64,000 nucleotides of DNA. It comes from Minisyncoccia bacterium. GTDB lineage: Bacteria > Patescibacteriota > Minisyncoccia > Phycocordibacterales > DATDWN01. Positions 367 through 53,335 of this stretch are shown here, piece by piece (position 1 is the stretch's first letter; each line of letters starts with the position of its first letter). The translations under genes and the position numbers were made by a program. The DNA lies in assembly GCA_049296855.1 (NCBI GenBank), contig JBAQTF010000012.1:1939-65938 (forward strand). The letters are read 5' to 3'. The notes under the pieces were generated by a model. That model saw only the letters and a list, made by a program, of their open reading frames with translations. It was not told the origin of the DNA and ran no database searches.

Positions 367-1202
367 GCTAGGGGGATTATATCACTTTTGTCATTTTCGG
401 TGCCTGTGAACCATTTTTGAGGCGAAATCACTACTTTTTTAGGATTACTATTAAGCCAAGCCCCCCACCAGCTAAATGTACTGTTTGCAATAATATTGTG
501 TTTACAAAGACTCATCAGTATAAGTTCTTCGTAGTCTGGAATTATAGTATCAGAAACGAAAATAATCGGATATTTTTTAGGGAAGTTCTCTTTTACCCAT
601 TCTATATCGTCGGAGAATACAAAAAACGTAGTTTTGGGAAATTTTTCATCAATTTTGATCATCCCATTTTCGTAGTATGAAATTGGTAAAATCCCATGTT
701 TATCAGAGATTTTTTTTATGGATACATAATCTCCACGTCGAATATGTATGCTTGTTGAATTTGGTAAAGAAATAATTTGCTTCATAACTTCTTGAGAGGC
801 TTTCCCTAATGGTCTTTTTAGCTTGAAATCATTTCTAATCGTATTTTCATTAGCTTTAAAATATTTTTCGTTGTTCCAGTGACCAATGAAATATCCATTA
901 TTTTGTGACAGAATATTTGGGTCAAAAGCAGATGATTTTTCTATAATTTTCTTGCTCTTTAAACCAAGTTTATTTAGGACTTTTTGAAAAGGGGAGTTGT
1001 AGGAAGCAACCTCTTTGTCTGATGCTTCTTCCAATTCCATTACAAAATTATTTATTCTTAGAGATCTTTGACTTTGGTTAGCCTTTTCTAAGTACGACGA
1101 ATCTATTTTTAAACTAGTTTTATGAATCAATGATAAATTACGCCCCAATGCATATTGAAACATTTGATTACCCAGACCGCCCTCTAATTTTATTATGATC
1201 AT
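351..1202 (-). CDS. Alpha-1,2-fucosyltransferase (GT11 family)
   Basis: The protein has the GGLGNQMFQYA, HIRRGDYV and IANSTFSWWGAWL motifs of FutC-like GT11 enzymes. The ORF-track start at 1229 is a TTG. The ATG at 1202 forms a TAATG stop/start overlap with the upstream gene and restores the typical MIIIKLEGGLGNQ N-terminus. Confidence 0.85.
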   Translation of the reverse strand: MIIIKLEGGLGNQMFQYALGRNLSLIHKTSLKIDSSYLEKANQSQRSLRINNFVMELEEASDKEVASYNSPFQKVLNKLGLKSKKIIEKSSAFDPNILSQNNGYFIGHWNNEKYFKANENTIRNDFKLKRPLGKASQEVMKQIISLPNSTSIHIRRGDYVSIKKISDKHGILPISYYENGMIKIDEKFPKTTFFVFSDDIEWVKENFPKKYPIIFVSDTIIPDYEELILMSLCKHNIIANSTFSWWGAWLNSNPKKVVISPQKWFTGTENDKSDIIPLAWTKL

Positions 1203-2848
1203 TAATTGACTATCCAATAACTCAGACAAGCTTTATTTGTAACTGGATTATTGCTCGATTTTATAGTGAAACTTGTACCGGATGTTCTGGCGTTTATAAC
1301 ATAATTTCGTCCTGTGCCTGTATTGCAAGTAATACCAAGTCTTGTGCCAAGAGATGAGTCTTCCATAATAAATATCTGACTATTAGCTGTTACTGCAGTC
1401 GTGTTAACTACTAGAGTACTACCTCCTGTCGGCATAGCAACACTACCAGCTGGAGCAGAGCCACAAGTAGAAGGCGTTGTAGTAGAATTACAATTTGAAA
1501 CTGTACCTAAGTTTGTGATATTTAACAGTCCTTTCACTGTAGTTGTAGCATTTGTCCGTCCAATGTTAATTGATGTTGCTGTTGTTGAACCAAAAGAAAG
1601 AAGTCCTGCAGAATCTGTATCAAAGCCTAATCCATTCGCTAGAACATTTATGAAATTTCCGAAGATGTCACCATTTACATGAAGAGTTGCTGTGGGCGTA
1701 CTTGTTGCGATTCCAACCTTACTATTTATTATCATGTTTTGGCCAGAACGACCGAATGTCATAGTTGTTGCATTCATTGTGCCAAAATTTAGTATTCCAC
1801 TTGTCACAGAATCAAACAGTGATCCAACTGGCATAAAGAAATTTCCAGAAGTAAGCATAGTATCTGAACCGTCGTCAGAAAGAAGAGCATTACCTATAGT
1901 TGTACTTGCTGTAAACTTTACCAGTCTGTTAATTATTCCTGAACCTGTTATTGATTGATTACTACTTGTATAACTTATTATTACTATTCCTGATCCACCT
2001 GATCCACCAGTATTAGTGTTGCCACCTCCACCTCCACCTCCAGTATTTGGATCTCCATTACCAGGAGTTGAACCACTGTCACTTCCATTTCCTCCACCTC
2101 CTATTCCACCTGAACCGGGTGTAATAGCATCTGTCGCGCCACCCCCTCCGCCAGCATAAGTTACATTAGTTCCAGAAATTGAATTTGCGAGGCCAGCTCC
2201 TCCGTCACTTCCATCTGTATGTCCACCAGCCAGATCTTCTCCTGCTGTAGAAGCACCTCCACCCCCCGCACCTCCATTTCCTGACCCACCCCATATTTGA
2301 TTACCCCCTCTATTTCCTTGTCCTCCATTTCCTGACCCACCATTTGAATCATCTCCAAGCCCAGCCGCGCCACCACCAGAACCACCATCTGCGCCAGTAG
2401 CTGTCGTTGTAGAAAAACTTGAGCCACCTCCTCCACCACCTGTAGAAGTAATAGTACTAAATATTGAATCACCCCCATTAGTTCCTTTACTTGTATATAC
2501 TGTTGCACCACCTCCACCACTGCCAACTGTTACAGAATACGACTGACTTGTAATACTAAAATTAGAATCATATTGATAACCACCCGCACCACCTCCACCA
2601 CCATTATATTGATTAGTTGTACCTCCTCCACCACCACCTCCACCAGCTACAACAAGAGCTTGAACAGTACCCCCACCAGTACCAGTGCAATCTAAAGTTC
2701 CACTGGTTGTAAAAGTGTGAATTGTATTTCCACCCGATTGGATAATAGTTCCTCCAGTACAATCTGATGAGAATGCAAAAACAGTTAAAGGAGAGGCTGT
2801 CAAAGTGATTGCTAAGAATAATGATAAGAATGTTACGATTTTTTTCAT
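1202..2848 (-). CDS. Glycine-rich secreted protein (signal peptide, long Gly/Ser/Thr low-complexity region, structured C-terminal domain)
   Basis: N-terminal signal peptide MKKIVTFLSLFLAITLTASPLTVFA. Poly-Gly tracts include GGGGGGGG and GSGNGGQGNRGGN. The C-terminal roughly 200 aa are non-repetitive. No family recognised. Confidence 0.6.
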   Translation of the reverse strand: MKKIVTFLSLFLAITLTASPLTVFAFSSDCTGGTIIQSGGNTIHTFTTSGTLDCTGTGGGTVQALVVAGGGGGGGGTTNQYNGGGGGAGGYQYDSNFSITSQSYSVTVGSGGGGATVYTSKGTNGGDSIFSTITSTGGGGGGSSFSTTTATGADGGSGGGAAGLGDDSNGGSGNGGQGNRGGNQIWGGSGNGGAGGGGASTAGEDLAGGHTDGSDGGAGLANSISGTNVTYAGGGGGATDAITPGSGGIGGGGNGSDSGSTPGNGDPNTGGGGGGGNTNTGGSGGSGIVIISYTSSNQSITGSGIINRLVKFTASTTIGNALLSDDGSDTMLTSGNFFMPVGSLFDSVTSGILNFGTMNATTMTFGRSGQNMIINSKVGIATSTPTATLHVNGDIFGNFINVLANGLGFDTDSAGLLSFGSTTATSINIGRTNATTTVKGLLNITNLGTVSNCNSTTTPSTCGSAPAGSVAMPTGGSTLVVNTTAVTANSQIFIMEDSSLGTRLGITCNTGTGRNYVINARTSGTSFTIKSSNNPVTNKACLSYWIVN

Positions 2849-6339: not shown

Positions 6340-8370
6340 CTATGCTAAATAGTGTTTAATTTCAAGCTCAATTTCTTTTGCTATTTTTACACTATTTACA
6401 ATCTTACCGCCTAGAATTGACCAGCATCCAAAACCATAGTATGTCGTATCAGATGGTCTAGCATCATCGTGTTCTCTATAGGCATTTACTGCTCTATGAA
6501 CGTATCTAACATCAACGATTTCTGCCTTTTCTAAGATAGGTATCCATTCTTTACTTTTATTTAGTGTTTCTTTTATCATTGTCTTTGTTCTTTTTCGGCC
6601 ATGGGGGATTCCATTTTTGGGGACATATCTTTCTAGCATTGACTCTTTTATATGGACAAGAGTAAAAAGACCATCTTTACTTGTTGGTACCAGATTTGTA
6701 AACGGTCCGTCCATAATAGCGATAGATATTTTAGGTAGAGGTAATTTAACTATGAGTGTTTCTACAAGGTCAATACGGACAGGTTTTATAGGGAAATCAA
6801 ACCAATGAGAAAATTTATTGTGTCTTGCATATGTAGCGTTTATAACATAATCAAACTCTTTTGAGTTTTTGTTACCTTTTGAGTCGATAAATGTTAAGAC
6901 TTTCTTTCCATCAGGGTTGATTTTTCCAGAAACAACCTCAGAATTAAATTTTATTTTAAGATTGTGTGATTTTTGTATGCGTGCTTCTACAAGTTTCTTT
7001 AAGCGATCATAGTTATATATTGGCTCAAATGTTTTTAAAGATAATGATATTTTATTTCGATTTAAGAATTTTTCATTCGGATATTCTATTGTAAAAGGCA
7101 GATTGTGTTTACGACAGAATTTAAGATAGTCCTCTGGGGTTGTTTTTGACTTTGATTTTGCGACAGAATAATAAGTAGGGAATTCATAGACAATAGCCTC
7201 ACTATATAGATCTTCAAAAGCTTCTATAGCTTCACGGATATCCTCCACTGTTTTATCGCTCCTCGGATAGTGATATCCCCAGTGATGGCGATATTGATTG
7301 ATATAAGAGGCTTCAAGCATGATATCTTGGTTTTTTTCAAAGACGGTAACATCAGTGAATTTGGCCAATTCTAATGCACAATTTATTCCAAAAATTCCAC
7401 TACCTATAACAGCCACTTTTGGTTTCGCTAGATTAACAACATTTTTCTCCTTTGATTCTATTTCTTCTGCAATAGAGACGATACGTGTTCCTACGTCTAA
7501 ATCTGGGTATTTAACCTTTTTTCCTTTCAATAATTTTAAAAATACCACCAGTTCTTCTTCGAGAGGTGATTTTTCAGAAGTGCATTTTACTATCTTTACA
7601 GAACCGCTTTCTAAATTTTTGATCGAAATTATATTTTCTAGAAAGTCACATTTTATTTCCTTTTTGGAGAATATAAAATCTATTGTCCGAATTTTTTTAT
7701 CACCAGACCACCCAAGTTTAAATGTGGCATGTTTATTTTTAGCGTATTTTACCTCTACCGTTCGAGTTCTTTTAGATATTTTTGTAGAGATAGTTCCCGG
7801 ACTCATTCCAATAATAAAATCTACTATATCGAATAGGTGAAGTAGTTCAAAGGCTATAGGTCTTCCGTTGTCAGTATCTTTCTGGTTGGTAAAACTACCA
7901 TTTATGATGACAGGTTCTTTTTTGAATGGTTCTAGTATAGACCTAAGCTTTTTTATAGAAGGGTTATATCTAAAAATATGTCCAACCATAAAAGTTCTTC
8001 GATATTTCTTAGCTTCTGTAGTTATTCTCTTTGCTTCCAGGGTGTTCATCGCTAGAGGTTTTTCGATAAACACATCAGTCACAGGTAAGCATTTCATAGC
8101 AATTTCGTAATGAGTCTCAGGAGGCGTTACAATATCAACTGCATCTACACTTTTGAGTACGTCGTCTGTTATTTTAGTCCACACTTTTACATTATATTTT
8201 TTAGTTATATTTTTCTGCGACTCTTGAGATTTAACTACGACTCCAAATACAGAAATTACCCCTTTTTTCTCCAAAGAAAGAAGAGTTTCAAGATGTTTTT
8301 CTCCAAATCGTCCAGCTCCGATGAGTAGAATTGACGGTCTTTTATTCTTTTTTTTCTCAGTGAGTTTCAT
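6340..8370 (-). CDS. Fusion oxidoreductase: N-terminal Gfo/Idh/MocA NAD(P)-binding domain plus C-terminal FAD/NAD(P)-binding oxidoreductase domain
   Basis: N-terminus ILLIGAGRFGEKHLETL is a Gfo/Idh/MocA Rossmann fold. A second dinucleotide-binding motif VAVIGSGIFGINCALELAK occurs near residue 320. Confidence 0.6.
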   Translation of the reverse strand: MKLTEKKKNKRPSILLIGAGRFGEKHLETLLSLEKKGVISVFGVVVKSQESQKNITKKYNVKVWTKITDDVLKSVDAVDIVTPPETHYEIAMKCLPVTDVFIEKPLAMNTLEAKRITTEAKKYRRTFMVGHIFRYNPSIKKLRSILEPFKKEPVIINGSFTNQKDTDNGRPIAFELLHLFDIVDFIIGMSPGTISTKISKRTRTVEVKYAKNKHATFKLGWSGDKKIRTIDFIFSKKEIKCDFLENIISIKNLESGSVKIVKCTSEKSPLEEELVVFLKLLKGKKVKYPDLDVGTRIVSIAEEIESKEKNVVNLAKPKVAVIGSGIFGINCALELAKFTDVTVFEKNQDIMLEASYINQYRHHWGYHYPRSDKTVEDIREAIEAFEDLYSEAIVYEFPTYYSVAKSKSKTTPEDYLKFCRKHNLPFTIEYPNEKFLNRNKISLSLKTFEPIYNYDRLKKLVEARIQKSHNLKIKFNSEVVSGKINPDGKKVLTFIDSKGNKNSKEFDYVINATYARHNKFSHWFDFPIKPVRIDLVETLIVKLPLPKISIAIMDGPFTNLVPTSKDGLFTLVHIKESMLERYVPKNGIPHGRKRTKTMIKETLNKSKEWIPILEKAEIVDVRYVHRAVNAYREHDDARPSDTTYYGFGCWSILGGKIVNSVKIAKEIELEIKHYLA

Positions 8371-9196
8371 TGAATATACTGTCGCTTTTTAGCTCTGGAT
8401 AGTCAAGTGGGGTGTTTGAGCAAATGATTCCGTTCGGACGTCCTGTCCTGTTATTTATTCGATAATAAAAGAAAATTTTATCCCATTTTATTTTTCCCGA
8501 ATTAAATAGTTTTTTAATATCACTCAAATAATCATGATTTTTCATTGCCTCCATCAATATTACGTATTTTTTCGACATTGCAAAAAGATTTTCTAGTGCT
8601 ATTAGGTGTAATTCATCTGTACGAATGTGCATTATTACTGCTTGAGTATAGGTCAGATCGCATTGTTCGAAAGGGAGTTTGGTAAAAAGTGTGGTTGCAT
8701 CAGACTGTGATATATTATTTTTTAAATGGGGATATGTCTTCTCTAGACTTTTTAGTTGTTTGTCTGAGAGGTCTATGCCACAGATTCTTTTGTTTGGAAG
8801 TAATACAGAAAGATTATGAAGGTGCATACCTGTTCCGCACCCCATCTCAAAAATAGAATCTGGATTCAGTTGAAGTATAGTTTCGTATAAAAATTCATGA
8901 GATTCATGGAGGGGTTTGATTTCTTGGTTGTTTTTAATTAATTTCCCATTCTTAAGAACGTAATCGTTCTTTTTTAGTGATTGAGTGTAGTATTTTGATA
9001 CTTTCTTTAGTTCACCTAAGTAGTGAAGATGATAAAGTGTCCAGTCAAACATGTCTTTGTCATTATTCTTTGGATTGGAAAAGTGGAGTTTTACAGCAAC
9101 TTTTCTTATAGATTTTAAAAAATGATACCCGAATATCTCAATGTTCGGATAATACTCATCTTTATTTGTAATAAATTTTTTTATTTTCTTCAGCAT
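8357..9196 (-). CDS. Class I SAM-dependent methyltransferase
   Basis: EMGCGTGMHLHNL motif. Confidence 0.65.
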   Translation of the reverse strand: MLKKIKKFITNKDEYYPNIEIFGYHFLKSIRKVAVKLHFSNPKNNDKDMFDWTLYHLHYLGELKKVSKYYTQSLKKNDYVLKNGKLIKNNQEIKPLHESHEFLYETILQLNPDSIFEMGCGTGMHLHNLSVLLPNKRICGIDLSDKQLKSLEKTYPHLKNNISQSDATTLFTKLPFEQCDLTYTQAVIMHIRTDELHLIALENLFAMSKKYVILMEAMKNHDYLSDIKKLFNSGKIKWDKIFFYYRINNRTGRPNGIICSNTPLDYPELKSDSIFNETH

Positions 9197-9197
9197 A

Positions 9198-10295
9198 CTA
9201 TATGATGTGTTTTAGTTTTAAGATTTCTATAACACGATTGCAAAAACTTTTTGGAAGGAATTGAATATATTTATCACTTGTCAGGTAGCGTTTACCAGCG
9301 AGGATGTATTTATTGTACTCGCCCTCTTTCATCTTAATAAGGTATTTTGCTAATTCTGTATTATTATTGAATTTTCGGCGGTCAATAAATGTATCAGAAT
9401 CAATATAGTCTGTTATATTTGGAGCGCCCCAATATACAGGAACTGTCCCGGCTTGAAGTGAGTCAAATATTTTCTCTGTTATATATCCATTTGTTCCAGA
9501 TAGATTTTCGTAACAAATATTGAATTTGTATTTTGATAATGTTTCTATCTTGTCTTTTGAATGCCCACGGTATGTTTTATATTTTTTTATAAACCAAGGA
9601 AATATTCTTTGCAATCTAGTGATAGGTATGTTCCACCTTACTCCATATAGATCAAAATTGTCAGGGAAGTTCGAGTCAAAATATTCAATAGATTTTCTTC
9701 TTTCTGAGTATAACTCATTTTTCTCTCTCGAGTACTTATTAAAAGATATATTCACTAACAGTTTTTTTTGACTAAACGGAACAACTGTTCCTAATGGTTT
9801 ACGGTCTGGTATAGGTAGACGAAATTTGAAGAACTTTTTATTGTCCACCAATTCATCATTCCAGGTCAAGATAGTGGAAAATTTATCGTGTAATGATTTT
9901 ACGTAGTTGTATGGTTTAACTGATTTACCTTCCCATAAAACCAAAACCATTTTATCCTTTAATCCGTGGTGGAGGCATTCCTGATATAACTTTCTTTTTG
10001 GCTCAGGTTTTTTCTTTAAAGTTTCTTTTCGCAGAAAGGGAATATTACTTAATGGGTATTTTAGTTTCTCGCCCAAACTACTTCCGTCCATGAAAATCAC
10101 ACAGGTGCAGTTATCCAGACTATTTTGATCAATAGTTTTAAAGGTGTATCCAAGTTCTAAAAACCTGTCTCTTAAGAATTTCCACGGATCATTCATGTTG
10201 TTTATGTCATCCTTGAACATGGCATTATTCGCCAGAGCGGGGCTATCAAAGTTTATGAATATATCTTTCATGTTTTTATAAAGGTTTCCAAACAA
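9198..10295 (-). CDS. Alpha-1,3(/4)-fucosyltransferase (GT10 family)
   Basis: YKFNICYENLSGTNGYITEKIFDSLQAGTVPVYWGAPN matches the GT10 FucT signature (compare Helicobacter FutA/B, YKFNLCFENS...YVTEK...IPIYWG). Confidence 0.85.
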   Translation of the reverse strand: MFGNLYKNMKDIFINFDSPALANNAMFKDDINNMNDPWKFLRDRFLELGYTFKTIDQNSLDNCTCVIFMDGSSLGEKLKYPLSNIPFLRKETLKKKPEPKRKLYQECLHHGLKDKMVLVLWEGKSVKPYNYVKSLHDKFSTILTWNDELVDNKKFFKFRLPIPDRKPLGTVVPFSQKKLLVNISFNKYSREKNELYSERRKSIEYFDSNFPDNFDLYGVRWNIPITRLQRIFPWFIKKYKTYRGHSKDKIETLSKYKFNICYENLSGTNGYITEKIFDSLQAGTVPVYWGAPNITDYIDSDTFIDRRKFNNNTELAKYLIKMKEGEYNKYILAGKRYLTSDKYIQFLPKSFCNRVIEILKLKHII

Positions 10296-11211
10296 TTAGT
10301 GAATGACCATCTACAAACATACTACCAGAGTTAGTTCTTTTTGCCTCTATTATTTTCACACTGCCTTTTGATTCTAGTTCTCTGAGATAATTTAAAAAAC
10401 CATTTATGTATTTTCTCTTTTTGAAATATTCTATTGATAGGTAATCCGGTAGTCTGTTTGGGTCTAGAATTTCGGCTATCGGTTCAATATTGACGACCAC
10501 TTCTGGTTTGTTTTTCAAAATATAGTCAACGAATTTTTTATAATCTTCACCAGTTTGTTCCAGAGAAGCAAAAGTAAATACTGCTGATTTTGGTGCGATT
10601 TTGAAACTAGAATCTGGATTGAAGTAGTCAAATTTTTTACCAAAAAGTTTTTTATCTCCGAGATTTTTTGCAATCTGCTCTATTCCTTTCTGACTTGATT
10701 CTACCCAGTCCATTCCCCAGATAGTTGCCGCTCTGTTTATTTCACGCATTTTTAAGAGGTTATGTCCTGGTCCACAGCCAAATTCATAGAGATTTTCATA
10801 TTTTCGGAAGTATTTGTCTAAAACATAGTACGTGAGTGTATTTACAATATTTATCTCAAAATCTTTTGAAACCGCTTTTACGAACTCTCCATTGATTCTC
10901 AGGATGTCGTATTTTCCGTAGTATTTTGGAATAAGAAATTTCTCATCCATATTTTCTTTGTATGCGTCCGCGTTTTCTTTCCAACCTTTTTGCCATTGTT
11001 CAAGCCTATGTTTTCCTGAAAAAGGGATTGAATCATCCAGTAAGACAGAGATTATTTTAAGTATTACTTCGTCTCTTTCTTTTGTGCTCAGAGTATTATA
11101 TTTTAGTTTATAACTTTTTATTTTTTTTGCGAGAAAAGGTGAAACTTTGTCATTTATCATTTTCTCATAGTCTTTTTCATTTATACTCTTTTGCATATTA
11201 TTTAGTTTCAA
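10276..11211 (-). CDS. Class I SAM-dependent methyltransferase
   Basis: YEFGCGPGHNLLKM motif. Confidence 0.65.
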   Translation of the reverse strand: MKLNNMQKSINEKDYEKMINDKVSPFLAKKIKSYKLKYNTLSTKERDEVILKIISVLLDDSIPFSGKHRLEQWQKGWKENADAYKENMDEKFLIPKYYGKYDILRINGEFVKAVSKDFEINIVNTLTYYVLDKYFRKYENLYEFGCGPGHNLLKMREINRAATIWGMDWVESSQKGIEQIAKNLGDKKLFGKKFDYFNPDSSFKIAPKSAVFTFASLEQTGEDYKKFVDYILKNKPEVVVNIEPIAEILDPNRLPDYLSIEYFKKRKYINGFLNYLRELESKGSVKIIEAKRTNSGSMFVDGHSLIVWKPL

Positions 11212-12247
11212 GTGGCCCAGGTTCTTGTCTGGTTAGTTTTTTCCACAGATCTAAAGACATATTAAGTATTCCGACGAAATTATTCTTTTCTATCTCCACC
11301 AAGTTTTCGCTTAGCCATTTTTCTATCGTCTTTATCGTATTTTCTAGACTATATTTTGGTTTCCAATTAAAGTCTTTTTCAAACGCTTTTGATGTAATTT
11401 GTAAATTACGAAGGTCTCCTAAGTCTCCCATCTGACCAATTTTGCATTTCACAACTTTTTGTATAGCCTCGCCGAATTGTTCTTTTGAAAGATTGTGACT
11501 GCCTATATTATATATAAGTTTTGGCCACCTATCTTTAGACATAATAGAAAAGTAACCACTTGTCATGTCTCTCACATCTATAGCTGCTCTATAGGCATTT
11601 AATTCAGATATTCTGATTAGACCTTGAGCTACAGCACAGTATGTAAAGTGATTTGGTAATAATTCGATTCTCATCCTAGGAGCAACACCGCAAACCGTTG
11701 CTGGACGGAGCATAATGATTTTAAATTTTGGATTTTTCTTAACTTTAGTTTTTATGTATTTCTCCATCTCTAATTTATATTTGCAGTAGTTATCCGTTGG
11801 TTCTGGTAGGGGAGCCTTCTCATCTAAAAGTTTCATTTCTTTTTGATTACCATAAAGACTTGATGTCGAGTTGTATATGATGGGGACTTTTAACTTTTCC
11901 GCCAGGTCAATAACTTTTTTTGAAGATTCATAGTTTAAATCTTTTGTGTAGTTTGGGTTATGATTTGCCGCCCAAACAGAAGAAAGCTCAGCAAAGTGAA
12001 AAATAAAATCCGGTTTAAAATCAACAATAGATTTTTTAAGAAGTTCTATGTTTCTAGTGTCTCCAATAACGTAACTTAGTTTTGTTTTAACTTTTTTCTC
12101 TTCCCCGATTTCCTTTAATATTTTTTTGTAATCCTGTTCGTAAATAAGTGAGTCATACAGGCAAACATCAAAGTCTTTTTTTAGCGCTTCTTTTGCTAAT
12201 TGTGAACCAAGGTAACCCAATCCTCCTGTAATAAAGATTTTTTGCAT
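11198..12247 (-). CDS. NAD-dependent epimerase/dehydratase (SDR family)
   Basis: N-terminus IFITGGLGYLGSQLAKE is a Rossmann fold. Extended SDR. Confidence 0.75.
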   Translation of the reverse strand: MQKIFITGGLGYLGSQLAKEALKKDFDVCLYDSLIYEQDYKKILKEIGEEKKVKTKLSYVIGDTRNIELLKKSIVDFKPDFIFHFAELSSVWAANHNPNYTKDLNYESSKKVIDLAEKLKVPIIYNSTSSLYGNQKEMKLLDEKAPLPEPTDNYCKYKLEMEKYIKTKVKKNPKFKIIMLRPATVCGVAPRMRIELLPNHFTYCAVAQGLIRISELNAYRAAIDVRDMTSGYFSIMSKDRWPKLIYNIGSHNLSKEQFGEAIQKVVKCKIGQMGDLGDLRNLQITSKAFEKDFNWKPKYSLENTIKTIEKWLSENLVEIEKNNFVGILNMSLDLWKKLTRQEPGPLETK

Positions 12248-12296
12248 TTCCTTAAGTTATCATAATTTTAACCTTGTGTCCAAAACTTTTTATACG

Positions 12297-12325
12297 TAAA
12301 AAAGCGTGGGACTTGCGTCCCACGC
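12297..12325 (-). terminator. Intrinsic terminator at the 3' end of the GC-rich HD gene
   Basis: On the minus strand: GCGTGGGAC-GCAA-GTCCCACGC followed by TTTTTT. It sits 26 nt downstream of the HD gene stop. Confidence 0.75.
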
Positions 12326-12350
12326 CTAATCTGTTTCCGATTGTTCGCCT

Positions 12351-13049
12351 CTACTCTTCCGGGAAGGGGTAAAGTCCGACGCTTTGCATCTCCTCGACGC
12401 ACCGCGACATGAAGTCGCGATAGTAGTCGAAGTATGGCTTACCCATCTCCTTGGCTTTCGGGAGGCGCAACATGTCCTCCCACTCAAGGTTGAACCAGAT
12501 CGCGTCGTAACACGACTGGATATTTCGGAACGTCGTTTGCGGATGTTTCCTACCGAGGTATTTCGGGATGCATGCCGGAATGTTGGGTCGGTGTTGTCCA
12601 CCCCGAATGAGGTTGAGTGCTCCCATGTTCGACAATCGATCTGCATCCTTGAGGGTCACTGTGACAGGGTTGTCCGCGTCACTGTTGCGCATTGAATGCT
12701 CCATCAATGCTTCACGCATGAACATGAGCTCGTCGTTTCTGAACTCCCCAACAGGCAGTAGCCCAAAGTATCGGTCCAACACTTCGCTTGTTTCACTGCC
12801 GAAGTGACGGTCGGTCGAGTGCATGAGTCCAACGACCCAGGTCATCTCGCCGACTCGCGGGGTTTCCGCGATGAGTGCGCTGGTCTGAGCGACCCGAAGG
12901 TCGTGGTCCCAGCCGTGCCCCATGGTTGTCTTTCCTGACGCGACGATGTCCTCGTGAGTCTTCTTCACCGCATCGTATAGAGCTTTGTATTTCGCTCTCA
13001 TTACCACGAATGTGTTGTACAGATACTGCTTTTTAGTCTCTGTTGCCAT
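12351..13049 (-). CDS. HD-domain protein (predicted metal-dependent phosphohydrolase), encoded in a GC-rich island
   Basis: H...HD...H...D pattern (GHGWDHDLRV, GLMHSTDRH, LKDADRL). Local GC is about 55-60% against about 35% in flanking genes. Purine-rich Shine-Dalgarno sequence AAAGGGGGG upstream. Confidence 0.7.
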   Translation of the reverse strand: MATETKKQYLYNTFVVMRAKYKALYDAVKKTHEDIVASGKTTMGHGWDHDLRVAQTSALIAETPRVGEMTWVVGLMHSTDRHFGSETSEVLDRYFGLLPVGEFRNDELMFMREALMEHSMRNSDADNPVTVTLKDADRLSNMGALNLIRGGQHRPNIPACIPKYLGRKHPQTTFRNIQSCYDAIWFNLEWEDMLRLPKAKEMGKPYFDYYRDFMSRCVEEMQSVGLYPFPEE

Positions 13050-13132
13050 CTCGACCCCCCTTTGAAAAAGGTTTTTACCTAGGAAAAGTTCTGTCTGGAC
13101 TCTATCACATTATTATAAAAAAGTCAAATATA

Positions 13133-14143
13133 TTATTTATACAACACTTTCTGCCACTCAATAGTTTTCTTTACCCCAACTTCTAGAGAAACGAAATCTT
13201 TTTTACCAAATTCGTTTTTAACTTTATCCAAATTTAAACTAACGTCTTCTGGTGCTCCAACCAGAGCTTGTTTTTCAGATTTAGGAATATTCACAGGCAC
13301 TTTTAAGTTTTTTCCAATAAGTTTAGCTAAATCAGCAATTGTCGTTCTGGAAATTCCTCCAACGTTATAGATATTGTCTTTTCCTTCTAAAAGTATTTTC
13401 CACATCATCCAGACTGCATCAGTAATATAACAGTATGTGCGGAGAGCCGAGCCGTCGTCCATCATGTTTATTTTCTTCTCTGTTAGAGCGCGGCCGATAA
13501 AAGAATTTAAAACACGCTTATCGTCTTTTTTTGTTCCGGGACCATAAGCTAAAGAAAGCCGCACAGATTTCGCATCTACTCCACTACTACGGAGGGTGGA
13601 GACAATAGCTTCACCACAGCGTTTGGCTTCTATGTAACATGAGCGTGGATGGTCTGTGTTTGTTGTACCGATTTCTGTCTCTTTGAAAGGTGGTTTCGAG
13701 AGTCCACTGTAGACTTCGCTTGTGCTCATGAATAAAAACTTTCCGCTATTATTTAATTTATCAAATAATTTCAAAGTGACAGCCGTGTTCATCTTTATGG
13801 TTTTTAGAGGGTTTTCCATAAATTTCCCTGGCTGACCATATCCTCCCGCATGAATAATAATGTCGGCTTTTGGTAATTTATTTACAAAATCATCATCGCA
13901 TAAGTCTCCCCCTATTACAGTAGCGTTTGCACCCTTAGATATTTCTTCCCAGTATTTTTCTGGTTTACTTTGGCAAACAGCATAAACTTTTACTCCGGTT
14001 TTTAAGAGTCCAGCTAGAAGATATGTTCCGACGAGTCCAGATGCTCCAGTAATCAAAACATTTTTGTTTTTTAATTGTGAAAAATCCACTCCTTTGATTG
14101 AACTTTTTGCGTCATCTATTATTATTTGGGCTAATTTATCCAT
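13133..14143 (-). CDS. NAD-dependent epimerase/dehydratase (SDR family)
   Basis: VLITGASGLVGTYLLAGLL Rossmann motif. Confidence 0.75.
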   Translation of the reverse strand: MDKLAQIIIDDAKSSIKGVDFSQLKNKNVLITGASGLVGTYLLAGLLKTGVKVYAVCQSKPEKYWEEISKGANATVIGGDLCDDDFVNKLPKADIIIHAGGYGQPGKFMENPLKTIKMNTAVTLKLFDKLNNSGKFLFMSTSEVYSGLSKPPFKETEIGTTNTDHPRSCYIEAKRCGEAIVSTLRSSGVDAKSVRLSLAYGPGTKKDDKRVLNSFIGRALTEKKINMMDDGSALRTYCYITDAVWMMWKILLEGKDNIYNVGGISRTTIADLAKLIGKNLKVPVNIPKSEKQALVGAPEDVSLNLDKVKNEFGKKDFVSLEVGVKKTIEWQKVLYK

Positions 14144-15017
14144 TGATTAGTTTCTTTAGTTTTTTATTTATTGCGTTAGGTGTCATTCCTAAATCCTTGT
14201 CGTGTTCTTCTGCTTTACCATATTTTGTCAGAAATCTTTTAGGCATACCAGCATGAACGATTTCAATAGCTTTTCCGGGAAAAGTATTTATCACGTCGGT
14301 GTCTAGTGCTCCTTCATAATAAGGTTCGCATATCAATATTTTATTTCCAGCGAGATTATTTTTTAGTGTCTTCGAGTCAAAAGGGAACAAGGTCGTGTAG
14401 TAAAGTATCGTTACATCTTCTTTTTCTGTCGCCTCTAGGACGGTTTTCAGCATTGGGCCAACAGCTATGACAGTAGCTTTTTTACCTTTTTTCACAACAT
14501 TCGCTTTACCGAATTTAACTTTTTTACTGTTTTCGTTCCCTCTCTCACTCAAACGAAAATAGGTTGGATTACCATCGGCGTAAGATTGTTTAAAAAGAGT
14601 GTCAAATTCCTCTGCTGTTCCCGGGACGATGATTTCCATTCCTGGGATATTTTTTAATATCGCAATGTCAGACGGACAGTGATGCGTTGCGCCAAGTGCT
14701 GCATAGTCATATGATGCACCGACACTGACAAAGTTTCCTCCGAGTTTCTGAAAAGCAAAATCTACTTTAATTTGCTCTAGTCCTCGTTCAACTATAAATG
14801 GGGTAATAGTGTGAACAACTGGTATTAAATTTGTTTTGGCCAGTCCTGCAGCTAGACTGATTGTTGCTTGTTCTAAGATCCCAATGTTATAAACTCGGGT
14901 GGGGTGTTTAGCGAAAGCATTTCTGAATCCAAATACACCAATATCTCCAAGTATCAAAACGAGTTTTTTGTCTTTATCTAGCACCTTCTCTAAAGTTTTT
15001 ACGAATTGTTTTCTCAT
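14136..15017 (-). CDS. Transketolase, C-terminal (pyrimidine-binding) subunit
   Basis: Transketolase Pyr domain and C-terminal domain. The gene is split from the upstream TPP-binding subunit. Confidence 0.75.
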   Translation of the reverse strand: MRKQFVKTLEKVLDKDKKLVLILGDIGVFGFRNAFAKHPTRVYNIGILEQATISLAAGLAKTNLIPVVHTITPFIVERGLEQIKVDFAFQKLGGNFVSVGASYDYAALGATHHCPSDIAILKNIPGMEIIVPGTAEEFDTLFKQSYADGNPTYFRLSERGNENSKKVKFGKANVVKKGKKATVIAVGPMLKTVLEATEKEDVTILYYTTLFPFDSKTLKNNLAGNKILICEPYYEGALDTDVINTFPGKAIEIVHAGMPKRFLTKYGKAEEHDKDLGMTPNAINKKLKKLING

Positions 15018-15030
15018 TATGTCTTTATAT

Positions 15031-15807
15031 CTAACTACTCAGTTCTTTCACAAGATTCTCGTACTCTTCTTTTGTTGGTGCTTTGTGGTGCCAAGCAGGA
15101 TTACCTTCCATAGTTTTACTTCCATAGCCTTTTATAGTTTCAGCTATTATGGCCAGTGGTTGTCCTATGTGAGGAGTTTTCAGTGCTTGATAAATCTCCT
15201 CTTGATTGTGACCACTAACTTTAATCACAACCCAATCAAATGACTTAAACTTTGATGCGATGTCACTCACAGACACAGCTCGGTCTGTCGAGTGGTTGTG
15301 ATCAACTATACAGATTAAGTTGTCTAATTTGTGATGACTGGCTAAAAGTGCTCCCTCCCAGACTGTACCCTCGTTACTTTCACCGTCGCCTATTATTGCA
15401 TAGACATTCGCTTTGTTTAGAGTGATTCGCATCCCTATAGCCATACCTACAGCAGTAGGGAAGCCATGACCAAGTGATCCAGTAGAAACTTCAACCCCAG
15501 GAACTTTTAGTGAATCTGGATGTCCACCAAGAATCCCTTCGAATTTTCCAAACGATTTCAAATGTTTTTTATGAAAAAATCCTTTGTCTGCGAGAATAGC
15601 ATACAAACCAAGAGAACCATGACCTTTGCTCAAAACGAATCTATCCCTTTTTGGATCGATTGGATTTTTCGGATTAAATTTTAAAACCTTGTCATATAGT
15701 ACGACCAATATATCCAAAATAGAAAAAGCACTAGGAATATGACCTTCTCCAGAGTTGTATGAAGCTTCAACTATTGAAATCTTTAGTTGGTTTATTCTAT
15801 CTTTCAT
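15031..15807 (-). CDS. Transketolase, N-terminal (thiamine-diphosphate-binding) subunit
   Basis: GHIPSAFS...GSLGHGFPTAVGMA...GDGESNEG is the TPP-binding transketolase signature. Confidence 0.8.
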   Translation of the reverse strand: MKDRINQLKISIVEASYNSGEGHIPSAFSILDILVVLYDKVLKFNPKNPIDPKRDRFVLSKGHGSLGLYAILADKGFFHKKHLKSFGKFEGILGGHPDSLKVPGVEVSTGSLGHGFPTAVGMAIGMRITLNKANVYAIIGDGESNEGTVWEGALLASHHKLDNLICIVDHNHSTDRAVSVSDIASKFKSFDWVVIKVSGHNQEEIYQALKTPHIGQPLAIIAETIKGYGSKTMEGNPAWHHKAPTKEEYENLVKELSS

Positions 15808-15812
15808 ATTTT

Positions 15813-17084
15813 CTATGAAATTTTTTCTGTTTTGTAATCCAATATGTTAGATACCTTACCCCAATATGCATCACCTTGTACAGGTTGTCTTGAGTTATTT
15901 TCGTTTGTTATTTCAATACTGATATCTTTTACTGTATCAACGCTACCTCTACCATCACTCAAATGTTTTAACCCAATATTTAGGAAAAGTACTCCGATTT
16001 GGAATAAATATGCTGGTATTTCAACACGAGTCCTGTATTTACCAGGTTCATAGTTCCTGTATCTACCTTCAATATCTCCTTCAGTAGAAAATAAAAGTAA
16101 TTCTCCTTGATAAAAGAAATATAAGAAAAGAAGTTTTTTTTCAAGTGGTTTACGTACTTCATAGTCAATCTCAATGGAGAATTTTTCTCCGATGGGTATT
16201 TGTGCTTGAGGTTTACCATCTTGACTTAAAATAGTTACTTTTTTAATTTGGCCTTCCAAAGTTTCTTTAGCCGGGTATTCTACGATTGAATTTAAAGTTC
16301 TTTCTACGTTAAGGTAGTAGTTCACTACTTCTGAGGTCTCGCCAAATTTAATCAACTCACCGTGTTTAAGCAAGATTGTCTTTGTACACAATCTTTCTAT
16401 AGCATCCAGATTGTGACTAACGAATATAATAGTTCTACCACCAGCCTTAGTAATATCGTCCATTTTCCCTAAACATTTTTTCTGAAATTCTGCGTCACCA
16501 ACAGCTAAAACCTCGTCGACAATTAAAATATCTGGTTCCATATGAGCTGCGACAGAGAAAGCAAGACGGACATACATTCCACTAGAATAATATTTAACTG
16601 GAGTATCAAGGAACTTTCTGACGCCAGAAAACTCGACTATTTCTTCAAACTTACCCGCCACTTCTTTTTTGGTCATTCCAAGAATAGCGCCGTTAAGAAA
16701 AATGTTTTCTCTTCCAGTTAATTCTGGATGGAAACCAGTGCCGACTTCAAGTAGTGAACCAACACGCCCACGGATTTTTATTTCTCCTGTGGTTGGTGGT
16801 GTGATTTGAGATAAAATTTTAAGTAAAGTAGATTTACCTGCACCATTTGGGCCTATAACTCCTATAATTTCTCCTTTTTTAATTGTAAGATTTAAACCTT
16901 TTACCGCCCAAAACTCTTCCTTTTTTTCAAATCCTATAATTGATATAGCTTTAACTTTCAGGAATTTTAATGGGGATTTTAGTATTGTCATTATGACATC
17001 TCGCAAGGCAACATAACCGCCACGCTCCCGTGTGATATCGTATTTTTTTCCTAAGTTTTTTATTTCAATTACATTGCCTTTCAT
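15813..17084 (-). CDS. ABC transporter ATP-binding protein, polysaccharide export (Wzt/TagH-like) with C-terminal extension
   Basis: Walker A motif GPNGAGKSTLLKIL plus ABC signature. There is a roughly 170-aa C-terminal extra domain, as in Wzt. Confidence 0.8.
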   Translation of the reverse strand: MKGNVIEIKNLGKKYDITRERGGYVALRDVIMTILKSPLKFLKVKAISIIGFEKKEEFWAVKGLNLTIKKGEIIGVIGPNGAGKSTLLKILSQITPPTTGEIKIRGRVGSLLEVGTGFHPELTGRENIFLNGAILGMTKKEVAGKFEEIVEFSGVRKFLDTPVKYYSSGMYVRLAFSVAAHMEPDILIVDEVLAVGDAEFQKKCLGKMDDITKAGGRTIIFVSHNLDAIERLCTKTILLKHGELIKFGETSEVVNYYLNVERTLNSIVEYPAKETLEGQIKKVTILSQDGKPQAQIPIGEKFSIEIDYEVRKPLEKKLLFLYFFYQGELLLFSTEGDIEGRYRNYEPGKYRTRVEIPAYLFQIGVLFLNIGLKHLSDGRGSVDTVKDISIEITNENNSRQPVQGDAYWGKVSNILDYKTEKIS

Positions 17085-37434: not shown

Positions 37435-37656
37435 TCATGACGCCTTCCTCTCCTGCGTTTTGTGACGAATGATGAGGCGCGCAACCTCAGTCACCATTTC
37501 TGACTTCTCGGGTTCTTTGATGAACCCCGCGGATTCGACCGCTGCATTCAAGATCTTGTTGTATCTTGGAGCAAAGAGTCGACCCTCAGTGGTCAGGACT
37601 TTTTCACATTCCCTGATCACTTTCAAAGCGATTTCACCAGCGTTCAAAATAATCAC
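37435..37656 (-). CDS. Small hypothetical protein (about 70 aa) in GC-island 2
   Basis: GC-rich ORF with an AGGAGGTG Shine-Dalgarno sequence. The track start at 37656 is a GTG that overlaps that sequence. A TTG at 37647 gives 8-nt spacing. No family recognised. Confidence 0.45.
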   Translation of the reverse strand: MIILNAGEIALKVIRECEKVLTTEGRLFAPRYNKILNAAVESAGFIKEPEKSEMVTEVARLIIRHKTQERKAS

Positions 37657-37720
37657 CTCCTTTTACTCTGGCTAGAGTTTACCATTCTAAATTTTTTTGT
37701 AAAGAGCTTATAAAAAGGAA

Positions 37721-37743
37721 GGCTCGTCGTATTACGACGAGCC
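37721..37743 (-). terminator. Perfect 10-bp hairpin between the two island-2 genes (possible internal terminator/attenuator)
   Basis: GGCTCGTCGT-ATT-ACGACGAGCC, followed on the minus strand by TTCCTTTTTAT. A second small hairpin CCTAGC-GATG-GCTAGG is adjacent. Confidence 0.5.
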
Positions 37744-37759
37744 TTTGACCTAGCGATGG

Positions 37760-37966
37760 CTAGGTAACTTCTTGTTCAGGGCCCTTGCGAGAAGCATTTC
37801 TCCTCGCGTTTGCTGCCCGAGAGAGGGTTGACATCGCCTGGTATACGTTTTCGTTTCTCCCAGCGTATCTCTTTACTACCTCGAGCATGAGGTTCCTATA
37901 GTCTCTGTCTGGGTACCTTTGACGCAAGTCTCGGAGCTCGTTCAACATCCGGTCTGTAATGACCAT
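37760..37966 (-). CDS. Small hypothetical protein (68 aa) in GC-island 2
   Basis: ATG start preceded by AAGGAGGG at 6-nt spacing. GC-rich. No family recognised. Arg-rich C-terminus. Confidence 0.5.
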   Translation of the reverse strand: MVITDRMLNELRDLRQRYPDRDYRNLMLEVVKRYAGRNENVYQAMSTLSRAANARRNASRKGPEQEVT

Positions 37967-53043: not shown

Positions 53044-53051
53044 AAAAGAGA

Positions 53052-53069
53052 CCACCCGGTTAAGGGTGG
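53052..53069. terminator. Hairpin CCACCC-GGTTAA-GGGTGG shared by the permease operon (+) and the island-5 gene (-)
   Basis: A-run upstream and T-rich downstream on the plus strand. T-run on the minus strand. It overlaps the last codons of the island-5 ORF. Confidence 0.6.
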
Positions 53070-53335
53070 CCTTTGTCTGATGGTTTTTTAAACCACTTGC
53101 TATTGGTGCGAAGATCTTCCACGACCGCCGAGTCCATTCCGAGCAGTTCGTAGGCGGTTCGTGCTTCTGCGTCCCCGATCTCTTTTTTTGTCCAACAGTA
53201 GTCGATTGCTCCTAGAACACAAGCTTGAGCCGATCTGAGCCGACCTTCTTCAAGGAAGATGTCTACACAGAGTTTACCTTCCTCGTTGAGGTATACCTCG
53301 GCCAGCTGTTTAATGGTCGCTTTATCTGCATTCAT
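53060..53335 (-). CDS. Hypothetical protein (91 aa) in GC-island 5
   Basis: ATG preceded by GGAGGTG. GC about 50%. No family recognised (LCVDIFLEEGRLRSAQACVLGAIDYCW). Confidence 0.5.
   Translation of the reverse strand: MNADKATIKQLAEVYLNEEGKLCVDIFLEEGRLRSAQACVLGAIDYCWTKKEIGDAEARTAYELLGMDSAVVEDLRTNSKWFKKPSDKGHP

What the first reader, a model, noticed from the sequence alone, without database searches (positions are those of the whole stretch)
12297..13130. GC-rich HD-domain gene with its own terminator inserted inside the 20 kb fucosyl-glycan operon
A 232-aa HD-motif protein (H...HD...H...D) lies between two sugar epimerase genes. The segment has 55-60% GC, a purine-rich ribosome-binding site and a possible TTGACT-N17-TAGAGT promoter. 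A perfect intrinsic terminator (GCGTGGGAC-GCAA-GTCCCACGC-UUUUUU) follows immediately.

That terminator would cut transcription of the roughly 11 kb of downstream glycan genes unless there is read-through or a re-initiating promoter. An HD phosphohydrolase has no obvious role in a glycan pathway. Stand-alone HD proteins are frequent in defence and nucleotide-signalling contexts.
Basis: partly seen in the sequence, partly recalled or inferred. Interest (0 to 1): 0.7.

Follow-up and report, generated by a model that had tools for sequence, protein, structure and literature searches.

The report
Imported variant HD hydrolase in glycan operon
A GC-rich, self-contained gene inside a sugar-coat operon of a tiny uncultured (CPR) bacterium encodes an unusual HD-fold enzyme that always travels with sugar-nucleotide genes; it is a horizontally acquired accessory gene of the glycan pathway and shows no sign of being a defence gene.

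Summary
A 232-aa ORF (12351-13049, minus strand) has 54% GC and GC3 0.69, against GC3 0.28±0.03 for its neighbours. It has its own TTGACT-N17-TAGAGT promoter, an AAAGGGGGG ribosome-binding site and a strong hairpin plus U-tract terminator. It interrupts an otherwise tightly packed ~17 kb minus-strand glycan operon in a Minisyncoccia (CPR) genome.

- **Context:** it has no defence-library match. All relatives that could be placed lie in CPR genomes, inside nucleotide-sugar or glycan clusters. Close orthologues sit beside the same split transketolase and SDR genes.
- **Accessory status:** most such modules lack the gene, including the syntenic low-GC cluster L032/L033.
- **Transcription unit:** orthologues nearly always carry their own promoter and terminator, in either orientation.
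- **Origin:** recent horizontal acquisition is well supported here. The gene lies 3.1 sd above the family's GC3 trend.

The biochemical role is inferred, not shown: probably a nucleotide-directed hydrolase serving the sugar-nucleotide pathway.

The parts
12351..13049 (-). 232-aa ORF encoding a variant HD-fold protein of the YpgQ/YedJ type, with motif GH45-x3-H49 ... H77-S78-x-D80-R81 ... H118 ... D135-A-D137-R-L ... R149
13099..13127 (-). Sigma-70-like promoter TTGACT-N17-TAGAGT (TG-extended), starting 5 nt after the stop of the upstream SDR gene, in AT-rich DNA
   Evidence: A perfect TTGAC[AT] hexamer lies 60-100 nt upstream of the ATG in 8 of 9 distinct orthologous loci (sequences).
13055..13063 (-). 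Ribosome-binding site AAAGGGGGG, 5 nt before the ATG
   Evidence: Read directly from the sequence.
12296..12327 (-). Intrinsic terminator: 11-bp GC-rich stem, GCAA loop, U6 tract, beginning about 23 nt after the stop codon
   Evidence: dG -22.6, z -4.8; unique in window. 8 of 9 distinct orthologous loci have an equivalent hairpin plus T-run.
12304..13060 (.). GC island (~54% GC in a ~34% GC neighbourhood) covering the ribosome-binding site, ORF and terminator stem; the likely imported segment
13133..14143 (-). Upstream SDR gene (SDR_up), UDP-glucuronate-decarboxylase-like. It is part of the conserved TK_N-TK_C-SDR module that accompanies close HD orthologues.
14136..15807 (-). Split transketolase: C-terminal subunit 14136-15017 and N-terminal subunit 15031-15807
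11198..12247 (-). Downstream SDR gene (SDR_dn; best PDB match 6vo6). It starts 103 nt after the HD stop and has no consensus promoter in between.

Best explanation
**What it is.** The gene encodes an intact member of an uncharacterised subfamily of YpgQ/YedJ-type HD-fold proteins. As far as sampled, the subfamily is restricted to CPR bacteria.

**Active site.** The subfamily keeps the residues that in YpgQ bind the phosphate (H45), the metal (H49, H77, D137) and the ribose (R149). The Asp of the HD pair is replaced by Ser or Asn, and H118 and D80 are (near-)invariant.

**Where it occurs.** It is an optional, accessory gene of nucleotide-sugar and glycan clusters. Close orthologues accompany a split-transketolase + SDR module.

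**How it is expressed.** In nearly every genome it is an autonomous unit with a strong promoter, a strong ribosome-binding site, one ORF and a strong terminator. It occurs in either orientation.

**Origin here.** This copy was acquired horizontally from a GC-richer CPR donor of the Kaiserbacteria-like clade. It now sits between two co-oriented SDR genes of a 17-kb operon.

**Likely mechanism (inferred, not shown).** A metal-dependent hydrolase that binds a nucleotide moiety and acts on a nucleotide or NDP-sugar species generated by the pathway. This could be clean-up or recycling of NDP or aberrant NDP-keto-sugars, or release of a pathway intermediate. It would be expressed independently of, and probably more strongly than, the surrounding operon.

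Expression of the downstream glycan genes must then rely on terminator read-through or on a non-consensus promoter.
For: **Fold and family**
- Profile A1 hits 2qgs (8e-10), YpgQ 5dqv (3e-7) and YedJ.
- Profile A2 hits 2pq7 (2.9e-15) and seven further YedJ/YpgQ-type chains over the full length.
- 45 of 74 family members individually match PF01966 at E<=0.01.

**Residue mapping to YpgQ**
- H25, H29, H58, D59, D124 and R136 in YpgQ correspond to H45, H49, H77, S78, D137 and R149 here. This comes from the alignment and the roles given in PMC8177086.
- The pair position is S in 89, N in 64 and D in 2 of 160 representatives. H49, H118 and D137 are invariant.

**Genomic context**
- Searches show TK_N/TK_C/SDR_up next to the orthologues in L004, L010, L011, L013, L014 and L015 (47-74% identity), with DUF311 and GT10 nearby in several of them. 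L012 (55%) has a diverged E1/transketolase pair plus SDR_up, SDR_dn and DUF311.
- Relatives at 28-42% identity are flanked by GDP-mannose-dehydratase-type SDRs, sugar C-methyltransferases, DegT, a formyltransferase, UDP-glucose dehydrogenase and glycosyltransferases.

**Taxonomy**
- All 19 genome loci are CPR. The named cluster members are Paceibacterota.

**Accessory status**
- A sensitive HMM finds no family member in 21 of 22 SDR_up-anchored loci (L032-L053).

**Autonomous unit**
- Promoter, 5' UTR and terminator are present in 8 of 9 distinct orthologous loci.

**Horizontal transfer**
- GC3 is 0.69 against 0.28 for neighbours (z=14).
- Four-fold-site composition matches genes of the 54%-GC contig L004, not this genome.
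- Ribosomal protein L21 in the same window has GC3 0.30.
- The gene lies +0.34 (3.1 sd) above the family's host-tracking GC3 regression.
- The nearest relative is 74% identical, in a 54%-GC Kaiserbacteria MAG.

**Precedent**
- PenF is a YpgQ-like HD phosphatase embedded in a biosynthetic cluster (PMC11592144).
Against: - No activity, metal or substrate is known for any family member. Loss of the metal-binding Asp of the HD pair could mean altered chemistry or loss of catalysis.
- The gene is absent from most otherwise similar clusters, so it is not a core biosynthetic step.
- Pairwise identities of the HD gene track those of TK_N, TK_C and SDR_up across seven loci (r=0.80). The window, L004 and L013 form one clade in all four genes. 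That is what co-inheritance would give, yet only the HD gene is GC-rich here. The transfer must therefore have come from an unsampled member of the same clade, or something else keeps its GC high.
- No donor above 74% identity was found.
- No integrase, transposase or convincing terminal repeats mark an insertion mechanism.
- Whether the terminator works in this organism is untested.
Confidence: 0.55

Rival explanations
1. The protein is not a phosphohydrolase. The re-modelled site (H, H, S/N, D, H, D) could support different chemistry on NDP-4-keto sugars, such as hydration/dehydration or redox as in the HD-fold enzymes Ddi2, MIOX and PhnZ. Alternatively it is a catalytically dead nucleotide-sugar-binding regulator, like degenerate HDOD domains.
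For: - The Asp of the HD pair is replaced in 153 of 160 representatives, while an extra His (H118) is invariant.
- 2 of 74 members touch the HDOD model.
- The independent promoter and terminator would suit a regulator.
Against: - The best sequence and fold matches are YpgQ/YedJ-type hydrolases over the full length.
- The phosphate-binding His and ribose-binding Arg of YpgQ are conserved.
- The dinuclear oxygenase motif H..HD..H..H..D is not present.
- There is no DNA-binding or signalling domain.
Confidence: 0.2
2. The gene was not transferred recently. It was inherited together with the TK_N-TK_C-SDR_up block, and its high GC3 is held up by selection (very high expression, mRNA structure) or by GC-biased gene conversion.
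For: - HD identities parallel those of the neighbouring module genes (r=0.80).
- L013 shares the direct SDR_up-HD adjacency, and L004 has the same order with one aldo-keto reductase gene in between.
- Across 25 loci the HD gene's GC3 exceeds its neighbours' in 20 (Wilcoxon p=0.001). By comparison of its GC3 with the highest neighbour GC3, it is the top ORF in 14 loci, where 2.3 are expected by chance.
- C-ending two-fold codons are enriched in every orthologue.
- The mRNA is more structured than synonymous-codon shuffles in the window (z -3.8), L013 (-3.4) and L011 (-3.0).
Against: - An excess of 0.41 in GC3 is far beyond the family offset of ~0.1 and lies 3.1 sd off the host-tracking trend.
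- G-ending and four-fold sites are also GC-rich, which is a mutational signature rather than a translational one.
- The ribosomal protein in the same window has GC3 0.30.
- The structure excess is absent in four of seven orthologues.
- Neighbours with equal protein divergence have fully host-like GC3.
Confidence: 0.12
3. One reading: a stand-alone defence or nucleotide-signalling HD nuclease/phosphodiesterase that landed by chance in the glycan operon.
For: It is compositionally foreign, has its own promoter and terminator, and many stand-alone HD proteins are defence-related (general knowledge).
Against: - No PADLOC or PHROG match.
- No phage or viral relative. The single plasmid hit is a remote generic HD protein at 26% identity.
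- No defence partner genes.
- Every relative examined is inside a sugar-nucleotide cluster, and close orthologues are next to the same transketolase/SDR module.
Confidence: 0.04

Closest known systems
YpgQ (Bacillus subtilis, PDB 5DQV): Mn-dependent (d)NTP pyrophosphohydrolase of the HD superfamily
   Same: - GH-x3-H motif, DADRL motif and the Arg 12 residues after the last Asp.
- Equivalents of H25, H29, H58, D124 and R136 are conserved.
   Different: - About 15-16% identity.
- The metal-binding Asp59 of the HD pair is Ser (Ser or Asn family-wide).
- H118 is invariant here but absent in YpgQ.
- The base-stacking residues H158 and F140 are not conserved.
- Found only in CPR sugar-nucleotide clusters.
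- Activity is unknown.
YedJ-type structural-genomics HD proteins (2PQ7, 2QGS, 3DTO, 3DJB, 2PJQ, 3B57, 3GW7)
   Different: All of them keep the canonical HD pair. None is functionally characterised, and none is known from glycan clusters.
PenF (Streptomyces antibioticus): YpgQ-like HD arabinoside-5'-monophosphatase encoded in the pentostatin/vidarabine cluster
   Same: It is a precedent for a YpgQ-like HD hydrolase serving as a pathway-embedded, nucleotide-directed accessory enzyme (PMC11592144).
   Different: PenF has the canonical H..HD..D motif and belongs to a nucleoside-antibiotic pathway, not a glycan pathway. No direct comparison was run here.
Defence and signalling HD proteins (Cas3 HD, SAMHD1/dGTPase, HD-GYP, small alarmone hydrolases)
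   Different: There is no PADLOC match, no partner domains and no defence neighbourhood. The motif set and the genomic context are different.

Membership tests
HD-domain superfamily (Pfam PF01966) | HD helical fold | tested here: met
   [not shown]
HD-domain superfamily (Pfam PF01966) | Sequence match above the curated Pfam threshold | tested here: not met
   This protein gives no Pfam hit even at E<=1. However, 45 of 74 family members hit PF01966 at E<=0.01, and some pass the 22-bit cutoff (P0024 23.8, P0050 32.2, P0063 27.9).
HD-domain superfamily (Pfam PF01966) | Metal-binding motif H...HD...D | tested here: inconclusive
   The first His (H49), the His of the pair (H77) and the last Asp (D137) are invariant or nearly so. 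The Asp of the pair is Ser78 (S 89, N 64, D 2 of 160). D80 and H118 could compensate, but metal binding was not tested.
YpgQ/YedJ clade of HD phosphohydrolases | GH-x3-H, HD-x2-D and DADRL-x8-R signature with full-length similarity | tested here: met
   Alignments. H45, H49, D80, D135, D137 and R149 are all present. Only the Asp of the pair differs.
YpgQ/YedJ clade of HD phosphohydrolases | Metal-dependent nucleotide (pyro)phosphohydrolase activity | not testable with these tools
   Requires biochemistry.
Anti-phage defence HD proteins | Match to a defence-system model or a defence-island neighbourhood | tested here: not met
   No PADLOC hit. Neighbours are sugar-nucleotide enzymes in every locus examined.
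Rho-independent (intrinsic) terminator | GC-rich hairpin immediately followed by a U-tract downstream of a stop codon | tested here: met
   11-bp stem, GCAA loop, U6; dG -22.6, z -4.8. Termination in vivo was not tested.
Horizontally acquired gene island | Composition and codon usage foreign to the host, and absence from a syntenic relative | tested here: met
   GC3 z=14. Top outlier of 60 ORFs. L032/L033 have the same gene order without it.
Horizontally acquired gene island | Hallmarks of a mobile element (integrase, transposase, terminal repeats, target duplication) | tested here: not met
   No such gene is adjacent. The 22-nt flanking inverted repeat is marginal (p~0.04), and no comparable flanking repeat at the unit's boundaries is seen in the seven other loci tested.

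The most novel reading that the evidence does not exclude
The family is a CPR-specific HD-fold enzyme whose rebuilt metal site (H...H-[S/N]-x-D...H...D) carries out a step not yet described on NDP-keto sugars or their nucleotide carriers. It would spread between glycan loci as a self-sufficient promoter-to-terminator gene cassette, without any recognisable mobility gene. Its persistent GC3 excess and, in some copies, excess mRNA structure would reflect selection on the transcript itself.
Probability: 0.15. Interest if true: 0.7.

Novelty: new variant of a known kind. Interest (0 to 1): 0.4.

Why it matters
CPR bacteria have tiny genomes, cannot make nucleotides de novo, and depend on cell-surface glycans for their episymbiotic lifestyle.

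This is an uncharacterised HD-fold family with at least 138 clusters at 50% identity (E<1e-30). It is tied specifically to their sugar-nucleotide clusters, so it is a concrete candidate for an unknown step in CPR glycan metabolism, such as nucleotide recycling or quality control.

The family also gives a natural experiment on what an HD site does without its Asp.

The locus is a clean example of single-gene horizontal import into a glycan operon, with a built-in terminator. That makes operon read-through in CPR directly testable by RNA-seq.

Tried and rejected
- **Defence or phage origin.** PADLOC, PHROGs, the phage and plasmid collections, IMG/VR and BFVD gave nothing relevant.
- **Mobile-element boundaries.** A 22-nt imperfect inverted repeat flanks the unit. 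It is marginal against shuffles (p~0.04), and no comparable boundary repeat appears in seven orthologous loci. Treated as chance.
- **Translation-coupled anti-terminator.** A 14-nt coding segment (12372-12385) resembles one terminator arm (I3). Duplex energies between the CDS end and the terminator are no better than shuffles in any of 8 loci (z >= -0.7). Rejected.
- **Structured RNA in the region.** No Rfam family matches there.
- **Fusion partner as a functional clue.** The 400-aa relative P0073 has an N-terminal 180 aa that looks like a mis-called, low-complexity extension and has no domain.
- **Re-initiating promoter.** None was found by consensus in 12248-12302, nor in the L032 spacer.
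- **Assembly chimera.** Rejected, because two other assemblies reproduce the junctions.
- **GC spike at 2001-2500.** This is a glycine-rich repeat protein, not a second island.
- **AFDB fold libraries.** Unavailable.
- **Literature.** Searches found no description of this family or of the transketolase-SDR-HD module.

Full report
**1. What is in the sequence**

The window is part of a Minisyncoccia (CPR/Patescibacteria) MAG, GCA_049297715.1, contig JBAQUU010000002.1.

The ORF at 12351..13049 on the minus strand encodes 232 aa.
- Its GC is 0.54 and its GC3 is 0.69. Seventeen neighbouring ORFs have GC3 0.28±0.03, giving z=14.
- It is the most extreme of the 60 ORFs in the 64-kb window. The median GC3 is 0.29, and ribosomal protein L21 has 0.30.
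- The GC island is sharp, about 12304-13060.

The transcription and translation signals are all present.
- TTGACT-N17-TAGAGT lies at 13127..13099.
- AAAGGGGGG lies 5 nt before the ATG.
- About 23 nt after the stop there is an 11-bp GC-rich hairpin followed by U6. Its dG is -22.6 kcal/mol, z=-4.8, and none of 200 shuffles is as stable. The hairpin is unique in the window.

The minus-strand cluster from 19990 to 2942 (~17 kb) is otherwise tightly packed. Genes overlap or are separated by at most 17 nt. The only real gaps inside it are the 83 and 103 nt flanking this gene.

Two Logan contigs from other sequencing runs reproduce both junctions exactly, so this is not a chimera.

**2. What the protein is**

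On its own the protein matches nothing in Pfam, NCBIfam, PHROGs or PADLOC. NCBI calls it 'HD domain-containing protein'.

Profile and structure evidence places it firmly in the HD superfamily.
- A profile of 20 homologues hits YedJ/YpgQ-type HD proteins in the PDB: 2qgs 8e-10, YpgQ 5dqv 3e-7.
- A 74-sequence profile hits eight such chains over the full length, with 2pq7 at 2.9e-15.
- 45 of 74 family members individually match PF01966 at E<=0.01.

The YpgQ alignment combined with published residue roles (PMC8177086) gives this mapping:

| This protein | YpgQ | Role in YpgQ |
|---|---|---|
| H45 | H25 | phosphate contact |
| H49 | H29 | metal ligand |
| H77 | H58 | metal ligand |
| S78 | D59 | metal ligand |
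| D137 | D124 | metal ligand |
| R149 | R136 | ribose contact |

Across 160 family representatives the position of the Asp in the HD pair is Ser in 89, Asn in 64 and Asp in 2. H49, H118 and D137 are invariant, and H45, H77, D80 and R149 nearly so.

The domain call is therefore right. The family is defined by H-[S/N]-x-D in place of the canonical pair.

An exhaustive profile search finds 138 clusters (at 50% identity) with E<1e-30 and 831 with E<1e-3.

**3. Where relatives live**

All 19 loci recovered from species-representative genomes are CPR: Kaiser-, Nomura-, Taylor-, Falkow-, Lipton- and Harrisonbacteria, Saccharibacteria and Paceibacterota. The named cluster members are Paceibacterota.

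Close orthologues (47-74% identity) sit next to the same split transketolase (TK_N, TK_C) and SDR_up gene. This holds in L004, L010, L011, L013, L014 and L015. L012 has a diverged E1/transketolase pair plus SDR_up, SDR_dn and DUF311. L007 has an epimerase-DegT-epimerase set instead. The methyltransferase-like 311-aa gene and the GT10 glycosyltransferase that follow in the window are often present too.

Relatives at 28-42% identity are flanked by GDP-mannose-dehydratase-type SDRs, sugar C-methyltransferases, DegT aminotransferase, a formyltransferase, UDP-glucose dehydrogenase and glycosyltransferases.

The common denominator is sugar-nucleotide chemistry. The enzyme types present are ones that typically act on 4-keto sugar intermediates, though that last point is my inference. 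This contradicts 'no obvious role in a glycan pathway' and the defence suggestion. The phage, plasmid and viral searches also found nothing relevant.

**4. It is accessory and autonomous**

I anchored a metagenome scan on SDR_up. Of its hits, 22 loci at 40% identity or more (L032-L053) were analysed, many of them with the transketolase pair. A sensitive family HMM finds the HD gene in only one of them (L051), plus one short contig outside that set (L072).

The syntenic low-GC cluster L032/L033 has the order ABC-TK_N-TK_C-SDR_up-SDR_dn-DUF311-GT10. SDR_up and SDR_dn are separated by 150 nt of AT-rich spacer. In L036 and L047 the two SDR genes abut.

Where the HD gene is present, its position and orientation vary: after SDR_up, after SDR_dn, or next to DUF311, and on either strand.

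In 8 of 9 distinct orthologous loci the gene carries:
- a perfect TTGAC[AT] -35 hexamer 60-100 nt upstream of the ATG;
- a long 5' UTR;
- a strong hairpin plus T-run terminator.

**5. Origin of the GC anomaly**

Across 25 loci the HD gene's GC3 tracks the host's (r=0.75, slope 1.1) with a general positive offset.
- It exceeds its neighbours in 20 of 25 loci (Wilcoxon p=0.001).
- Comparing its GC3 with the highest neighbour GC3, it is the top ORF in 14 loci. Chance would give 2.3.

C-ending two-fold codons are enriched in every copy. Together with the consensus promoters this suggests high expression, though that is an inference.

The window's copy lies a further +0.34 (3.1 sd) above that trend. 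G-ending and four-fold sites are also GC-rich, with a composition like genes of the 54%-GC contig L004. Recent import from a GC-richer CPR donor is the best reading. The nearest relatives are a 54%-GC Kaiserbacteria MAG (L013, 74% aa and 73% nt identity) and L004 (70%).

One observation does not fit neatly. Pairwise identities of the HD gene parallel those of TK_N, TK_C and SDR_up (r=0.80), and the window, L004 and L013 form one clade in all four genes. Yet the three neighbours have fully host-like composition.
- Either the donor was an unsampled member of that same clade, giving a xenologous replacement or addition.
- Or something retards amelioration of this gene.

The cluster is in any case a mosaic. 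TK_N and TK_C are closest to the Kaiserbacteria type. ABC, DUF311 and GT10 are closest to L032.

No integrase, transposase or convincing terminal repeats mark the mechanism.

**6. How it most likely works**

*Shown:* the fold, the conserved nucleotide- and metal-site residues, the conserved sugar-nucleotide context, accessory distribution, autonomous expression signals and foreign composition.

*Inferred:*
- The protein binds a nucleotide moiety (H45, R149) and a metal (H49, H77, D137, perhaps H118 and D80).
- It hydrolyses a phosphoanhydride or phosphoester in a nucleotide or NDP-sugar arising from the pathway.
- This would be clean-up or recycling, which would be valuable to CPR cells that must salvage nucleotides. 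That last point rests on general knowledge of CPR metabolism.
- PenF shows that YpgQ-like HD enzymes can be pathway-embedded.

I put about 0.4 on the hydrolase step itself and 0.55 on the overall statement.

The main rival is different chemistry, or a non-catalytic nucleotide-sugar sensor, because the Asp of the pair is lost.

**7. The terminator puzzle**

No consensus promoter lies between the terminator and SDR_dn. An anti-terminator idea failed its test.

The same arrangement, with the gene co-oriented with its neighbours and carrying its own terminator, recurs in L004, L011 and L013. It is evidently tolerated. Read-through or a non-consensus promoter must serve the ten co-oriented genes downstream within the operon. 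Only transcript data can settle this.

**8. Verdict**

The defence interpretation is not supported. Recent insertion is supported for this genome.

The gene belongs to the glycan-cluster gene pool as an optional member. It represents an uncharacterised, apparently CPR-restricted variant of the YpgQ/YedJ HD family. Literature searches found no prior description.

Interest is moderate. It offers a testable new enzyme family and a clean model for operon read-through, but not a new kind of system.

Noticed in passing
window 53048-53335 (-): A 91-aa ORF (53060..53335) has GC 0.49 and GC3 0.49, the second-highest of 60 ORFs. It has no Pfam hit. Its own GC-rich hairpin terminator (53073-53048) overlaps the stop. 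It may be a second small imported gene.
   Followed up: partly
window 37435-37966 (-): A patch of 0.47 GC holds two small ORFs (73 and 68 aa) and a strong 13-bp GC-rich terminator at 37746-37718. Their function and origin are unknown.
   Followed up: no
window 1202-2848 (-): The GC spike at 2001-2500 comes from a 548-aa glycine-rich repeat protein (Gly_rich_2). This is an amino-acid composition effect, not foreign DNA.
   Followed up: yes
window 12351-13049 (-); L013 7396-8100; L011 8001-8690: The HD mRNA folds more stably than synonymous-codon shuffles in three of seven orthologues (z -3.8, -3.4, -3.0). The neighbouring TK_C and SDR genes and four other HD orthologues do not show this. Unexplained.
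   Followed up: partly
25 loci L001-L031: There is a family-wide GC3 excess of the HD gene over its neighbours. It is higher in 20 of 25 loci and the top ORF in 14, where 2.3 are expected. C-ending codons are strongly preferred. This suggests high expression or frequent transfer, and the cause is not resolved.
   Followed up: partly
L025 9225-11632 (Liptonbacteria MAG JACQKU010000008.1): Three tandem paralogues of the HD family lie side by side (HMM E 1e-51 to 2e-73).
   Followed up: no
L007 88-2105: An rve-family transposase gene lies immediately upstream of the HD orthologue in this contig. This is the only locus with a mobility gene next to it.
   Followed up: no
L012 1460-3132; L004 6889-8705: An aldo-keto reductase gene is adjacent to the HD gene in two loci. 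In L012 it overlaps the HD stop by 13 nt and there is no terminator, so the two are probably co-translated partners.
   Followed up: no
window 8357-17084 versus L004/L013 and L032: The glycan cluster is a mosaic. TK_N and TK_C are 72-81% identical to the 54%-GC Kaiserbacteria-type loci but only 59-66% identical to the syntenic low-GC L032. ABC-ATPase, DUF311 and GT10 are closest to L032.
   Followed up: partly
window 12281-12302 and 13072-13093: A 22-nt, 82% complementary inverted repeat brackets the HD unit. It is marginal against shuffles (p~0.04), and no comparable boundary repeat is seen in seven orthologous loci. Probably chance.
   Followed up: yes
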